59,299 nucleotides of DNA. It comes from Dehalococcoidia bacterium (GTDB taxonomy: Bacteria > Chloroflexota > Dehalococcoidia > UBA2979). Made by a program: the position numbers and the translations under genes. The stretch spans positions 1 through 59,299 of the forward strand of contig DASCRM010000013.1 in NCBI GenBank assembly GCA_034406555.1, written 5' to 3'. The notes under the pieces are model-generated. The model saw only the letters and a list, made by a program, of their open reading frames with translations, was not told where the DNA came from and ran no database searches. Below, piece by piece: positions 17,624 to 20,587 of the stretch; position 1 is the first letter of the stretch, and the number at the start of each line of letters is the position of its first letter.

Positions 17624-17947
17624 ATGAGCCACCCCACAGACACAACCGACACTACGTTCCAGACCGATGTGCTGGACAACGACACCCCCGTACTCGTTGA
17701 CTTCTGGGCCCCATGGTGTGGTCCCTGCCGCATGGTCGCTCCGATCGTGGAGGAGCTGGCGGAGGAGTACGAGGGCAAGGTGAAATTCGTGAAGCTGAAC
17801 ACGGACGACAACCCGCAGGTCGCCGGCAAGTACGGCATCCGCTCGATCCCCACGCTGCTCGTATTCAAGGGCGGTGAGCCGGTCTCGCAGATCGTCGGCT
17901 TCCGGCCGAAGAGCGACCTGGCGAAGCGGCTGGACGAGGCGCTCTAG
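17624..17947 (+). CDS. trxA: Thioredoxin
   Basis: [17 protein letters not shown]. Confidence 0.97.
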
Positions 17948-17972: not shown

Positions 17973-18006
17973 AAACAGGCGGGCCGCATGCGGCCCGCCT
18001 GTTTTT
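17973..18006 (+). terminator. Intrinsic terminator after trxA (possibly bidirectional)
   Basis: Perfect palindrome AAACAGGCGGGCCGCATGCGGCCCGCCTGTTT then TT. Confidence 0.85.
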
Positions 18007-18060: not shown

Positions 18061-18549
18061 TCAGTCGGACCCGTCGGTTGCCTCGTTCGCGCGGACGCCC
18101 TTGTGGATCGTGCGGCCCTGCTTCTCTTCGAGGCGGGTGAGCATTCTCCCCTTGTCGGGATGCGGGTCCTTCACGAGACCGTAAATCTCGCGCCCCTCAT
18201 GTCCCTCTGGCAGATGTTCTGTGATCGGAAGACCTTCCGACGCGACGAAGAGCAGTCAATGACAGTATTTCCAGCGCTGCATCTCCTCGCAGGCGCAGAT
18301 CCACTCCTTCTCGTCGACGGCGGCCTGCTTGTCGACGTAGAAGTTGCAGGGGCAGAGCGGGCGCTTCAGTTCATCGACGTGCTTGGCGAGGCCGATCACG
18401 AGGAACTCGGTGATCTCGCGCTGCGGGTGCAGGTAGGAGCCGCTCTTGCTGGCGAACGCCTCTACGTACTTCCACATCTTCGCCATCGACTTCGACGAGG
18501 CCTGAGCGCGGTCCTCGTCGCTCACATGGTCGAGACCGGGTTGGGTCAC
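18061..18549 (-). CDS. Ferredoxin:thioredoxin reductase catalytic subunit, predicted selenoprotein (TGA 18258-18256 = Sec), 162 aa
   Basis: LCPC...WICAC...YCH-TGA-LLFV matches FTR CPC/CPC/CHC; frame stays open for 64 codons to TGA at 18061; hairpin 15 nt after the TGA. Confidence 0.88.
18225..18258 (-). promoter_or_regulatory. Candidate bacterial SECIS element
   Basis: mRNA UGA-cugcucuucgucgcg-UCGGAA(GGUC)UUCCGA; apical loop starts with GG, 21 nt after UGA. Confidence 0.75.
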
Positions 18550-18633: not shown

Positions 18634-19179
18634 TTAGCCGATCGTAGCAGCGTCGCAAGTATGGCGGCGTGAGCGCCGACACGCGCCCGTCATGGCGGCG
18701 ACCCGAAACAATGCAACCCCATCGGCCAGCTCCTCGATGTGCGGGTTCAGCACGTCGACGGAACGAGGCGTAAAGGCGCGGTCGACGAGGCGGCGCAGGC
18801 GGTGGTGCTCCGGCAGGTCGAGCTGCAGGATGCTCGGCTCGCGGTCGCTCTGATCTTCCTCGTCGATGAGCAGGCCGGTTCGCCGGACATCACCCTCCGG
18901 GAGTTTGCGGCTGTCTCTGAAGACATCCTTGCTGCGCAGCACCTCGTTGACGTCGTCCCAGTGCGTCAGCACGACTTGGCGGCCGAAGTACGCATCGCGG
19001 TAGTGGATACGCCCGTCCTCGCGCATCGCGCGCAGCGCCGGGTGTGGGTCGGCGATGTAGTCGAGGTTGGTCGGGTCGTACTCCTGTGGGGCCTGTGGGA
19101 TGCCCGCAGTCTCTTCGGGCGTATCGCCTTGCGGTGTCTGGCGCTCTGTCGTGGTCACAGGTGGTTGCGATCCCCTCAC
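18634..19179 (-). pseudogene. Cytochrome P450 N-terminal fragment
   Basis: ADPHPALRAMRE, DDVNEVL, DLPEHHRLRRLVDRAFTPRSV; similarity ends ~18720 with no I-helix, ExxR or heme Cys. Confidence 0.75.
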
Positions 19180-19648: not shown

Positions 19649-19745
19649 GGGAGTGGATGATGTCCGGTGGTGTCCGCGGTCTTCAAAACCGTTGTGGGGC
19701 TACGTCGTAGTCTTGGGTGGGTTCGACTCCCACGCACTCCCGCCA
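19649..19745 (+). tRNA. selC: tRNA-Sec (anticodon TCA)
   Basis: Acceptor GGGAGTG/CACTCCC + GCCA; 6-bp D-stem with CGGT loop; GCGGT-CTTCAAA-ACCGT; long variable arm; GTGGG-TTCGACT-CCCAC. Confidence 0.95.
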
Positions 19746-19786
19746 GTCGTGCTTGCGCCGCTGGCGCATTCGATCGGAGGCGCATC

Positions 19787-20587
19787 ATCGACCTGCAACT
19801 GAACGGCAAGACTGCGCTGGTGACCGGCGGCAGCCGCGGCATCGGCAAGGCGATTGCGCGCGAGCTGGCGCTTGAGGGCGTGGATGTGGCGATTGCCGCA
19901 CGCGACCGCGCGACGCTCGATGCGACTACCGAGGAGCTGAAGCACGAGACCGGCCGGAAGATCGTGCCGATCGAGGTCGATACCGGCAGCGACGAGTCGG
20001 TGCAGGCGATGGTCGCCGCGGCGCACTCCGAGTTCGGGCACATCGATATCCTCGTCAACAATGCGGCGAAGGCCGGCGGGCAGGGGCCGGTGCCCACGCT
20101 GCCGGAGATCACCGATGAGCACTTCTTCGACGACATGAACGTGAAGGTGCTGGGCTACCTGCGCTGCGCTCGCGAGGTCGCGCCGCTGATGCAGCAGCAG
20201 GGCTGGGGCCGGATCATCAACATCAGCGGGCTGGCGGCGCGGCAGGCGGGTTCCACGATCGGCAGCATGCGCAATGTCGCCGTCTCCGCGCTGACCAAGC
20301 ACCTCGCCGATGAGCTGGGGCCGAGCGGCATCAACGTCACAGTCGTCCACCCCGGCCTCACGCGCACGGAGAAGACCGCTGAGGTGGTCGCCGCACGCGC
20401 ATCGAACTCCGGGCAGTCCGCCGAGGAGGTCGAGGCGCAGATGGCGTCGGGCAACCTGGTGCGGCAGCTGATCGATGCCAGTGATATCGCGAACATCGTC
20501 GTCTTCCTCGCTTCGCCGAAGTCGGTCGCGATCAACGGCGATGCGATCGCGGCTGGGGGCGGCGTTGGCCGAGCGATCCACTACTAA
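19787..20587 (+). CDS. Short-chain dehydrogenase/reductase
   Basis: TGGSRGIG, DILVNNA, GRIINISG; apparent start is ATC after GGAGG (the ORF-track start lies inside tRNA-Sec). Confidence 0.9.
   Translation: MDLQLNGKTALVTGGSRGIGKAIARELALEGVDVAIAARDRATLDATTEELKHETGRKIVPIEVDTGSDESVQAMVAAAHSEFGHIDILVNNAAKAGGQGPVPTLPEITDEHFFDDMNVKVLGYLRCAREVAPLMQQQGWGRIINISGLAARQAGSTIGSMRNVAVSALTKHLADELGPSGINVTVVHPGLTRTEKTAEVVAARASNSGQSAEEVEAQMASGNLVRQLIDASDIANIVVFLASPKSVAINGDAIAAGGGVGRAIHY

What the first reader, a model, noticed from the sequence alone, without database searches (positions are those of the whole stretch)
18061..18549. Hidden selenoprotein: FTR catalytic subunit with CH-U in place of CHC
Seen: the ORF track stops at YCH*, but the stop is TGA exactly where the third FTR motif needs Cys. 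The next codons read LLFV (FTR-like CHCxLF), and the frame continues 64 codons (..PITEHLPEGHEGREIYGLVKDPHPDKGR..). A perfect UCGGAA/UUCCGA stem with a GG-led loop starts 15 nt after the UGA. Known: the last CHC cysteine is the redox-active residue that contacts the [4Fe-4S] cluster. Inference: a selenenylsulfide FTR with a long C-terminal extension. Sec-type FTRs may already appear in metagenomic selenoprotein surveys, so novelty of the family itself is not claimed.
Basis: partly seen in the sequence, partly recalled or inferred. Interest (0 to 1): 0.85.

Follow-up and report, generated by a model that had tools for sequence, protein, structure and literature searches.

The report
Selenocysteine ferredoxin-thioredoxin reductase gene
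This is a real gene for an iron-sulfur thioredoxin reductase in which an apparent stop codon is read as selenocysteine at one active-site cysteine; such enzymes were already reported from ocean metagenomes, so it is a well-supported but not new kind of selenoprotein.

Summary
The minus-strand ORF 18549..18256 ends YCH-TGA. Reading TGA as Sec gives a 162-aa FTR catalytic-subunit (FtrB) homologue that ends at 18061.

The Sec reading is strongly supported:
- Full-length homologues carry Cys at this position and share the downstream tail.
- 79 of 91 distinct related loci carry TGA at the same codon.
- 113 distinct Sec-form tails stay open for 42 codons, with median dN/dS 0.19.
- 78 of 79 Sec forms hold an invariant GGAA-GGUC-UUCC hairpin 21 nt after UGA. 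It is built from otherwise rare codons, its flanks covary, and 11 of 12 Cys forms lack it.
- tRNA-Sec lies 1.1 kb away, and selA, selB and a Sec-containing selD are in the genome.
- A DNA contig from a separate study shows the same TGA.

Sec replaces the Cys87-equivalent of the redox-active pair.

The "extension" is a conserved, confidently folded tail that Cys forms share.

Sec-FTRs were published in 2008 (PMC2398784), and NCBIfam models a double-Sec form. This protein fails that model and belongs to a separate single-Sec clade, found in 41 of 301 sampled genomes of its class.

The parts
18061..18549 (-). ftrB(Sec): a 162-aa ferredoxin-thioredoxin reductase catalytic-subunit homologue. It has a GTG start at 18549, an in-frame UGA (Sec98) and a terminating TGA at 18063..18061.
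   Evidence: Searches give the ORF and read-through. PF02943, 68.7 bits; full-length Cys homologues at 65-76% identity over 90% of the length; model pLDDT 89.7, rmsd about 1 A to FTR catalytic chains.
18256..18258 (-). UGA codon read as selenocysteine (U98), in place of the last Cys of the CHC motif.
   Evidence: this column is Cys in all 19 full-length homologues. TGA at the same codon in relatives; it aligns to position 87 of 1dj7_A; the X2 DNA contig covering 18111-18421 has 0 differences.
18224..18241 (-). Bacterial SECIS-type hairpin inside the coding sequence: G.U, U-A, C-G, then GGAA/UUCC, closing a GGUC tetraloop (18234..18231). The loop starts 21 nt after the UGA.
   Evidence: One search gives the fold; the 12-mer core is invariant in 78 of 79 Sec forms; the rare codons GAA/GGT/CTT are fixed in 78 of 79; covariation in the flanking pairs; the motif is unique; the published 16-37 nt rule is met.
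19649..19745 (+). tRNA-Sec (selC), anticodon UCA, 1.1 kb upstream of the ftrB start.
   Evidence: Rfam RF01852, 69 bits against a cut-off of 47. ARAGORN calls tRNA-SeC; tRNA-Sec lies within 1.5 kb of the gene in 9 of 27 Sec-form loci.
17624..17947 (+). Thioredoxin gene (107 aa, WCGPC), convergent with ftrB(Sec). It is the likely substrate.
   Evidence: PF00085, 119 bits; the same convergent trx lies within the locus in 30 of 79 distinct Sec-form loci and 0 of 12 Cys-form loci.

Best explanation
The gene at 18549..18061 (minus strand) encodes a 162-aa selenoprotein, an FTR catalytic-subunit (FtrB) homologue.

How UGA98 is decoded (inferred from the parts found): SelB carrying Sec-tRNA(Sec) is recruited by an in-frame SECIS hairpin. 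That hairpin is a GGAA/UUCC stem with extra flanking pairs and a GGUC loop that starts 21 nt after the UGA.

How the protein is built:
- C66, C85, C87 and C96 hold a [4Fe-4S] cluster (assignment recalled).
- C68 and U98 form the adjacent redox-active pair, here a selenenylsulfide instead of a disulfide.

How it most likely works, inferred from the FTR mechanism: one electron from a ferredoxin-type donor opens the C68-U98 bond, and the selenolate of U98 becomes the fifth ligand of a cluster iron. C68 then attacks the disulfide of thioredoxin, most likely the product of the convergent neighbouring trx gene. A second electron releases U98, which resolves the mixed disulfide.

The 45-residue conserved tail after U98 is an integral folded part of this clade. 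No variable subunit is encoded in the genome as far as it is assembled.

What is shown: the gene, the conserved UGA, the conserved SECIS, the Sec machinery, the fold, and the trx and selC linkage. What is inferred: actual Se incorporation, cluster binding, the electron donor, the thioredoxin substrate and the Fe-Se intermediate.
For: 1. Position. The UGA aligns with a Cys that is present in all 19 full-length homologues of alignment A1. The two 97-aa rows stop just before it.

2. Same codon in relatives. 27 of 30 loci from related genomes read CHU. 79 of 91 distinct loci do so after adding 80 loci from GTDB species genomes titled Dehalococcoidia or Chloroflexota MAGs. In an even sample of 301 genomes of the class, 75 carry this FtrB type and 41 of them were verified as CHU.

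3. The read-through frame is coding. 113 distinct Sec-form tails have no stop in the 42 codons after UGA. HEG, LP, GR and other residues are invariant. Median dN/dS against the window is 0.19 and the maximum is 0.38, over 104 pairs.

4. SECIS.
- The GGAAGGUCUUCC core is present in 78 of 79 Sec forms.
- Codons +7 to +9 are GAA/GGT/CTT in 78 of 79. Elsewhere in the same genes these codons make up 24%, 9% and 4% of Glu, Gly and Leu codons. In Cys forms GGT and CTT each occur in 1 of 12.
- The structure with one bulged base is 91.8% paired. Three pairs change on both sides. 0 of 500 shuffles reach it, and slid controls reach at most 62.5%.
- Three lineages replace the core by other hairpins at the same place.
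- The loop lies 21 nt after UGA, within the 16-37 nt stated for bacteria (PMC10778597, passage read).

5. Machinery.
- tRNA-Sec lies in the window, at 69 bits.
- selA scores 529 bits, selB 304 bits and selD 360 bits.
- selD has its own in-frame UGA in the context CAGU, followed by a hairpin.

6. Not an assembly error. An X2 DNA contig from a different study than the best holder covers 18111-18421 with 0 differences.

7. Family and fold. PF02943 scores 68.7 bits. The ungapped alignment to 1dj7_A puts U98 at position 87. The AF2 model has pLDDT 89.7 and pTM 0.82, and superposes on 7bzk_A and 1dj7_A at about 1 A over about 88 columns.

8. It is the only PF02943 gene found in the genome, so no Cys paralogue was found to substitute for it.

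9. Linkage. A convergent trx lies in 30 of 79 Sec loci, and selC lies within 1.5 kb in 9 of 27.

10. Precedent. Sec-FTR with Sec at the redox-active Cys positions is published (PMC2398784).
Against: - No direct evidence of selenium in the protein exists. The organism is known only as a metagenome-assembled genome (82% complete, 130 contigs).
- The window's own hairpin is short (7 bp), and the local folding energy is not better than shuffles (z = +0.91).
- The window's copy fits the uninterrupted (no-bulge) pairing rather than the one-bulge pairing that fits most relatives.
- The hairpin coincides with the conserved residues E-G-L-P, so part of its conservation is protein-level. The synonymous-site argument answers this, but rests on only 12 Cys-form controls.
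- Relatives are not independent samples.
- The RNA-library contig that spans the UGA (X18) shows neither transcription for certain nor translation.
- The roles assigned to individual cysteines, the Fe-Se intermediate and the ferredoxin donor are recalled or inferred from plant and cyanobacterial FTR. They were not tested here.
- No variable subunit was found, so the enzyme is not a classical FTR heterodimer, and its donor may differ.
Confidence: 0.93

Rival explanations
1. UGA98 is an ordinary stop. The cell makes a 97-aa truncated FtrB fragment, or the gene is a decaying pseudogene, and the downstream frame is not translated.
For: Gene callers produce exactly this 97-aa product: P0065 and P0069, at 93-94% identity. 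The same gene also ends with TGA as its terminator. The local folding energy is unremarkable.
Against: The fragment would lack one of the two redox-active residues. The downstream 42 codons are open in 113 of 113 distinct Sec forms, with median dN/dS 0.19, and match the tail of Cys forms residue for residue. TGA is conserved at this exact codon across seven family codes of the class. No other PF02943 gene was found in the genome.
Confidence: 0.03
2. UGA98 is read through, but as a standard amino acid rather than selenocysteine. This could be Cys or Trp, inserted by a suppressor or near-cognate tRNA or under an altered genetic code.
For: Cys is the residue in homologues, so a Cys-inserting read-through would be functional. 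Se incorporation was not measured.
Against: The genome holds a tRNA with anticodon UCA that scores as tRNA-Sec (69 bits against a cut-off of 47), not as another type. It also holds selA, selB and selD. TGA terminates this same gene and its relatives, so TGA is not globally reassigned. A position-specific hairpin at SECIS distance is conserved only in the TGA forms, which is what SelB-dependent decoding requires.
Confidence: 0.03
3. The TGA is a sequencing or assembly error for TGC or TGT in this bin.
For: The genome is a fragmented metagenome bin with 4.4% contamination.
Against: A DNA contig of another study (X2) matches 18111-18421 with 0 differences. 78 other distinct loci have TGA at the same codon. 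Same-genus genomes G001 and G003 also read CHU.
Confidence: 0.01

Closest known systems
Sec-containing ferredoxin-thioredoxin reductase catalytic subunit. Zhang and Gladyshev 2008, GOS survey, PMC2398784 (passages read). Listed in reviews PMC9312934 (2022) and PMC13188914 (2026) (table rows read).
   Same: It is an FTR catalytic-subunit homologue in which an in-frame UGA replaces a redox-active Cys (motif CxU). A bacterial SECIS is predicted downstream. The source is marine metagenomic: the runs that hold this window are labelled marine, seawater or vent metagenomes.
   Different: The 2008 paper had two sequences, one of them with two Sec. I could not see its figure or dataset, because figures are not held and supplements are closed. 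I therefore cannot tell whether its single-Sec read belongs to the present clade. The present work adds the clade-wide distribution, the conserved hairpin, and the selC and trx linkage.
NCBIfam NF041072 FtrB_double_U (FtrB family double-selenoprotein)
   Same: It belongs to the same Pfam family and has Sec at the position equivalent to U98. It occurs in the same class: 30 of 301 genomes score over the cut-off, all with 2 TGA.
   Different: The window's protein scores 33.4 bits against a cut-off of 160. NF041072 proteins are about 121 profile positions long. In the 6 loci read they show the motifs CPU...CPC...CIU, with two Sec, no His and other hairpins. None was found in the 16 sampled genomes of the window's family. 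The window's clade reads CPC...C(A/P)C...CHU, has one Sec, and carries a conserved tail of about 45 residues.
Classical FTR of cyanobacteria and chloroplasts (PDB 1dj7, 2pu9, 7bzk)
   Same: The catalytic fold matches (rmsd 0.9-1.0 A over 83-89 columns). The spacing of the three Cys motifs matches. It has a thioredoxin partner.
   Different: The classical enzyme has all Cys and is a heterodimer with a variable subunit. PF02941 was not found in this 82%-complete genome, although the control rang in Synechococcus. Its C-terminus is shorter and different: alignments that include the tail give rmsd of about 10 A.
Ferredoxin-dependent disulfide reductases of anaerobes: Methanosarcina acetivorans FDR (4tpu) and the Desulfotalea glutaredoxin-FDR fusion (7pwe)
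   Same: They are FtrB-like [4Fe-4S] disulfide reductases that work without a variable subunit. The sequence match to 4tpu_A runs over residues 20-141, into the tail.
   Different: Those proteins are fused to rubredoxin or glutaredoxin domains and contain Cys only. The matches are weak: 28.6 bits and TM 0.39-0.41. The window's protein has no second domain.

Membership tests
Pfam PF02943 FeThRed_B (FTR catalytic chain) | Profile match above the gathering score | tested here: met
   68.7 bits against a cut-off of 22, residues 22-105. The genome search gave 62.9 bits.
FTR catalytic subunit (functional family) | Three Cys motifs, CPC-X16-CPC-X8-CHC, carrying four cluster ligands and the redox-active pair | tested here: met
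   The motifs are C66-P-C68, X16, C85-A-C87, X8, C96-H-U98. The alignment to 1dj7_A and 7bzk_A is ungapped across all three motifs. The variations are Ala for Pro in motif 2 and Sec for the last Cys. Which Cys ligate the cluster is recalled, not tested.
FTR catalytic subunit (functional family) | Binds a [4Fe-4S] cluster and reduces thioredoxin with electrons from ferredoxin | not testable with these tools
   Only indirect evidence is available: the fold match and the conserved convergent trx neighbour in 30 of 79 Sec loci.
Classical heterodimeric FTR | Partner variable subunit (PF02941 FeThRed_A) encoded in the genome | tested here: not met
   No match in G000 (82% complete). The control rang in Synechococcus elongatus. 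Absence from an incomplete genome is not proof.
Bacterial selenoprotein | In-frame UGA aligned with Cys in homologues, with a conserved coding frame downstream | tested here: met
Bacterial selenoprotein | SECIS stem-loop with its apical loop 16-37 nt after UGA (PMC10778597) | tested here: met
   The loop lies 21 nt after UGA. The element is conserved, with covariation and suppression of synonymous sites, in Sec forms only.
Bacterial selenoprotein | selA, selB, selC and selD in the genome | tested here: met
   All four score above the curated cut-offs.
Bacterial selenoprotein | Selenium demonstrated in the polypeptide | not testable with these tools
   This needs 75Se labelling or mass spectrometry.
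NCBIfam NF041072 FtrB_double_U | Score at or above 160 bits and two Sec (at the CPC and CxC redox positions) | tested here: not met
   The score is 33.4 bits, and there was no match at E<=1e-15 in G000. The protein has one Sec only, and no U occurs in the first motif in any of 91 distinct loci.
Rubredoxin- or glutaredoxin-fused FDR (4tpu, 7pwe) | Second redox domain fused to the FtrB-like domain | tested here: not met
   The only Pfam family at E<=0.01 is PF02943, and the protein is 162 aa long.

The most novel reading that the evidence does not exclude
The long-tailed, single-Sec FtrB of this Dehalococcoidia lineage is a selenoprotein subfamily of its own. It is separate from the curated double-Sec family, and gene callers routinely cut it to 97 aa.

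In it, selenium sits only at the cluster-contacting residue and not at the nucleophile that attacks thioredoxin. The catalytic intermediate would therefore carry a direct Fe-Se bond to a [4Fe-4S] cluster.

Sec at this codon was gained or rebuilt more than once, as three different hairpin sequences occupy the same place, and was lost again at least once, leaving a fossil SECIS behind a TGC codon.
Probability: 0.5. Interest if true: 0.55.

Novelty: new member of a known kind. Interest (0 to 1): 0.4.

Why it matters
For annotation, the gene is called as a 97-aa fragment, as shown by P0065 and P0069. The only NCBIfam hit for it is the double-Sec FtrB model, far below its cut-off. Verified copies occur in 41 of 301 sampled genomes of the class, so many related genomes probably carry a mis-called thioredoxin reductase.

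For biochemistry, Sec replaces the partner of the redox pair that, from recall of the FTR mechanism, binds a cluster iron during turnover. A natural Se-for-S swap at that site would be a useful probe of the unusual one-electron disulfide chemistry of FTR. It may also explain how these marine bacteria couple low-potential donors to thioredoxin.

For evolution, the clade offers a clean case of SECIS constraints written into codon choice. It includes a Cys revertant that still carries the hairpin.

None of this changes the fact that Sec-containing FTR as such has been in print since 2008.

Tried and rejected
- Single-sequence folding: the 68-nt stretch folds no better than shuffles (z = +0.91). 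It is no support by itself.
- Uninterrupted (no-bulge) pairing applied to all relatives: only 65.3% of cells are paired, and the version slid by -1 scores higher. I rejected it as the family consensus. The pairing with one bulged base fits the family, although the window's own copy pairs best without the bulge.
- 'stops_inside' counts of the genome search as a direct tally of Sec forms: rejected. In G093 and G317 the TGA is the terminator and the site reads CHC, and the '2 TGA' rows include the real stop. I therefore fetched and read the loci.
- Membership in NF041072: rejected.
- Promoter and terminator scan: it found nothing at the ftrB-trx junction. The GC-rich inverted repeat visible there was not picked up.
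- Tree of 237 sequences: FastTree on 121 columns. 103 of 234 inner branches are unresolved. Sec rows come from genome loci and most Cys rows from a protein database that cannot hold full-length Sec forms. I use it only to say that the trait is clustered (5 changes against a shuffled mean of about 78). It does not establish direction or the number of gains.
- RNA evidence: one 215-nt contig of an oligo-dT RNA library (X18) spans 18185-18398. Contigs cannot show strand or level, and DNA can be present in such libraries, so expression is not claimed. The places of its one C>T difference, and of 19 unlisted difference rows, were not shown. For X3 I can therefore say only that no listed difference falls on 18256-18258.
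- Papers: a search for a Dehalococcoidia-specific description of Sec-FTR (9 papers listed, passages of one read) found none. BSepDB (PMC13326102) mentions Dehalococcoidia with 46-49 selenoproteins, but its main text holds no 'ferredoxin' or 'FtrB'. A search for the archaeal FDR paper found nothing. The Cys57/Cys87 search gave only a general mechanism passage in PMC3838966. PMC5424206 was not relevant. Supplements are closed, so Dataset S2 of PMC2398784, which holds the 2008 sequences, could not be compared.
- Complex prediction (FtrB with Trx, or a homodimer) was not run. A textbook pair would pass by likeness to solved complexes, and the dimer question lies beside the finding.
Full report
**Observation.** The minus strand carries an ORF from a GTG at 18549 to a TGA at 18258..18256. 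It is 97 aa long and ends ...EEMQRWKYCH. Reading TGA as U continues the frame with LLFVASEGLPITEHLPEGHEGREIYGLVKDPHPDKGRMLTRLEEKQGR... for 64 more codons. It stops at a second TGA at 18063..18061, which gives a 162-aa product with U98. Fifteen nucleotides after the UGA lies UCGGAA-GGUC-UUCCGA, and RNAfold adds a G.U pair for 7 bp in all. The local folding energy is not exceptional (z = +0.91), so the case rests on comparison with relatives.

**What the protein is.** Pfam FeThRed_B matches residues 22-105 at 68.7 bits against a cut-off of 22. The motif spacing is C66-P-C68, X16, C85-A-C87, X8, C96-H-U98. phmmer aligns residues 18-104 without gaps to positions 7-93 of Synechocystis FTR chain 1dj7_A, and equally to Arabidopsis 7bzk_A, so U98 falls on position 87. 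An AlphaFold2 model built on 58 sequences has pLDDT 89.7 and pTM 0.82, and confidence stays at 93-97 through residue 150. Foldseek superposes the model on FTR catalytic chains at 0.9-1.0 A over 83-89 columns. The ferredoxin-dependent disulfide reductases 4tpu and 7pwe match more weakly.

From recall of Dai et al. 2000/2007 (not read here), Cys55, 74, 76 and 85 ligate the cluster, and Cys57-Cys87 is the redox-active disulfide. In that account Cys87 becomes a fifth iron ligand in the one-electron intermediate. A review passage I did read states the general scheme: one sulfur attacks thioredoxin while the other ligates an iron (PMC3838966).

**Is UGA98 read through?**
- A search of 5.8 billion proteins gave 1762 hits. 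The best are 145-175 aa proteins at 65-76% identity over about 90% of the query. Two 97-aa proteins at 93-94% identity stop exactly at H97.
- In the 22-row alignment, all 19 full-length homologues have Cys at column 98 and share the tail LLFVxxEGLPITEYLPExHEGREIYGLVKDPxPDKGRALGRLEE.
- In whole genomes read in six frames, 37 of 61 relatives have the gene. Of the 30 loci fetched, 27 read CHU and 3 read CHC. Rows with '2 TGA' simply include the terminator.
- I added 80 loci from GTDB species genomes, whose record titles read Dehalococcoidia, Chloroflexota or Chloroflexi MAGs. That gave 109 motif hits and 91 distinct stretches, 79 with TGA and 12 with TGC or TGT. None has U in the first motif.
- Over all loci held, 113 distinct Sec-form tails have no stop in the 42 codons after UGA. 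LF, G, P, T, LP, HEG, Y, D and GR are invariant. Median dN/dS against the window is 0.19 and the maximum 0.38, over 104 pairs.

The downstream frame is therefore translated and under purifying selection.

**SECIS.**
- In 78 of 79 distinct Sec forms, nucleotides 21-32 counted from the U of UGA are GGAAGGUCUUCC: GGAA/UUCC closing a GGUC loop.
- These 12 bases encode E-G-L-P. The codons are GAA, GGT and CTT in 78 of 79. Elsewhere in the same genes these codons make up 24%, 9% and 4% of their amino acids' codons. In the 12 Cys forms GGT and CTT each occur once.
- The pairs below the core vary and compensate: 16-36 is GC 30, AU 7 and UA 1; 18-34 is UA 46 and CG 5; 19-33 is GC 26, UG 22 and CG 7.
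- With base 20 bulged, 91.8% of cells pair. No shuffle out of 500 reaches this, and slid controls give at most 62.5%. Pairing without the bulge fits fewer sequences (65.3%), but it is the better fit for the window's own copy (C20-G33, U19-A34, G18.U35).
- Three lineages carry other hairpins at the same place. L020 has GAUGG-CGUGC-CCAUC. Six genomes of family code f35 have AUGGGGA-CGGGC-UCCCCAU, and L134 and L135 have GGAA-GGC-UUCC.
- One Cys form still carries the full GGAAGGUCUUCC hairpin behind TGC (L096, which is the same genome as L141). This is a fossil SECIS.
- The loop begins 21 nt after UGA, inside the 16-37 nt given for bacterial SECIS (PMC10778597, passage read). From recall, GGUC is also the apical loop of the E. 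coli fdhF element.
- The 12-mer is unique in the window, with 0 expected. With its spacing to TGA it is unique in the genome.

**Machinery and data quality.**
- A tRNA-Sec (anticodon UCA; Rfam 69 bits against a cut-off of 47; ARAGORN agrees) lies at 19649..19745, 1.1 kb from the gene's start.
- selA scores 529 bits, selB 304 bits and selD 360 bits, all above their cut-offs.
- selD itself has an in-frame UGA in the context CAGU, followed by a hairpin.
- The genome is a bin of 2.35 Mb in 130 contigs, 82% complete.
- A contig from a run of a different study than the best holder matches 18111-18421 with no difference. A contig of an RNA library spans 18185-18398. The latter does not prove expression.

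**Context.**
- A thioredoxin gene (PF00085, 119 bits) ends 113 nt from the ftrB stop, on the opposite strand. The same convergent trx lies within the fetched locus in 30 of 79 distinct Sec loci and in 0 of 12 Cys loci.
- tRNA-Sec lies within 1.5 kb in 9 of 27 Sec loci and in 0 of 3 Cys loci.
- No variable-subunit gene (PF02941) and no second PF02943 gene were found in the genome.

**Distribution.** In an even sample of 301 genomes of the class, 75 have this long-tailed FtrB at E<=1e-20. Their best matches divide as follows:
- 44 contain a TGA.
  - 41 of these I verified by reading as CHU.
  - 2 are CHC, with the TGA as terminator.
  - 1 (G270, unpublished) I did not fetch.
- 31 have no TGA.

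Verified Sec forms fall in seven family codes: f1, f20, f23, f35, f49, f53 and f74.

A FastTree of 109 Sec and 128 Cys sequences, with the Sec/Cys column masked, needs at least 5 changes of state against about 78 after shuffling. The trait is therefore strongly clustered. However, the tree is poorly resolved and the two groups were sampled differently, so I do not count gains and losses from it.

**Comparison with what is known.**
- Zhang and Gladyshev (2008) reported FTR catalytic-subunit homologues as one of 7 new selenoprotein families in the GOS data. They had 2 Sec sequences and 10 Cys homologues. One read had two Sec at both redox-active Cys positions, and SECIS elements were predicted (PMC2398784, passages read).
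- The 2026 inventory of 119 families lists a single FTR entry: NF041072, CxU, two Sec.
- The window's protein scores 33.4 bits on NF041072 against a cut-off of 160. That family does occur in the same class: 30 of 301 genomes score over the cut-off, all with two TGA, and none of the 16 sampled genomes of the window's family has it.
- In the 6 NF041072 loci I read, the motifs are CPU...CPC...CIU on a short protein with different hairpins.

The window's gene is therefore a selenoprotein of a known kind, but it belongs to a separate clade. That clade has a single Sec, keeps the His, has a long tail, and is not covered by a curated model. Whether the single-Sec GOS read of 2008 belongs to this clade I could not check, because figures are not held and supplements are closed.

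**Mechanism.**

Shown here:
- the conserved UGA, the hairpin and the Sec genes;
- the FTR fold;
- U98 at the position of the second redox-active Cys;
- the trx and selC linkage.

Inferred:
- SelB-dependent insertion of Sec;
- a C68-U98 selenenylsulfide next to a [4Fe-4S] cluster held by C66, C85, C87 and C96;
- electron input from a ferredoxin-type donor;
- attack of C68 on thioredoxin while the U98 selenolate ligates a cluster iron;
- resolution of the mixed disulfide by U98 after the second electron.

The conserved tail is part of the fold in both Sec and Cys forms. It may take over the shielding role of the missing variable subunit, which is speculation.

**Verdict.** The probability of a real, Sec-decoded gene is about 0.93. 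The kind has been in print since 2008, so I rate novelty as a new member of a known kind and interest as moderate (0.4). The moderate interest rests on three points: the clade is widespread, it is systematically truncated by gene callers, and it places selenium only at the cluster-contacting site.

Noticed in passing
L096 (also fetched as L141 from genome G093), codon equivalent to window 18256-18258: This Cys form (TGC) of the long-tailed FtrB still carries the complete GGAAGGUCUUCC hairpin with the rare GAA/GGT/CTT codons. It is apparently a recent Sec-to-Cys reversion with a fossil SECIS.
   Followed up: partly
L127-L132 (family code f35), L134/L135, L020: These Sec forms have different hairpins at the same distance from UGA: AUGGGGA-CGGGC-UCCCCAU, GGAA-GGC-UUCC and GAUGG-CGUGC-CCAUC. 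The SECIS was either rebuilt or gained independently.
   Followed up: partly
G066:C120:22357-23382 and G141:C122:110418-111471: In these two genomes a Cys-type long-tailed FtrB and a double-Sec NF041072 FtrB lie side by side on opposite strands.
   Followed up: no
G000:C67, TGA at about 962 (locus L014): The genome's selD is itself a selenoprotein. It has an in-frame UGA in the context SCAG-U-AGKMG, followed by a GGGUC-UCGG-GACCC hairpin.
   Followed up: partly
window 19649-19745 versus ORF 19667-20587 (+): The longest ORF call of the downstream gene starts inside the tRNA-Sec gene, so its real start must lie further downstream. Its family was not tested.
   Followed up: no
window 17978-18006: A GC-rich inverted repeat (about 10 bp arms) followed by a T-run on the + strand sits between the convergent trx and ftrB genes. 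It looks like a shared terminator, but the consensus scan did not report it.
   Followed up: partly
window 18634-19179 (-): This 181-aa ORF lies between ftrB and tRNA-Sec and has no Pfam family at E<=0.01. It was not examined further.
   Followed up: no
Family code f16 genomes (for example G051, G241, G161) and L160 (G317): The FtrB match is split into two pieces (query 13-76 and 67-148), or lacks the first CPC motif in frame. This could be a frameshift, an insertion or a split gene in that family. All of these are Cys forms.
   Followed up: no
window 19672-19745 in runs X2, X3 and X7: Summed contig depth over the tRNA-Sec is many times that of the flanks (76 to 301 against about 6). Many contigs end at 19745/19746. 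This suggests that many related organisms in these samples share the tRNA sequence but differ beside it.
   Followed up: no
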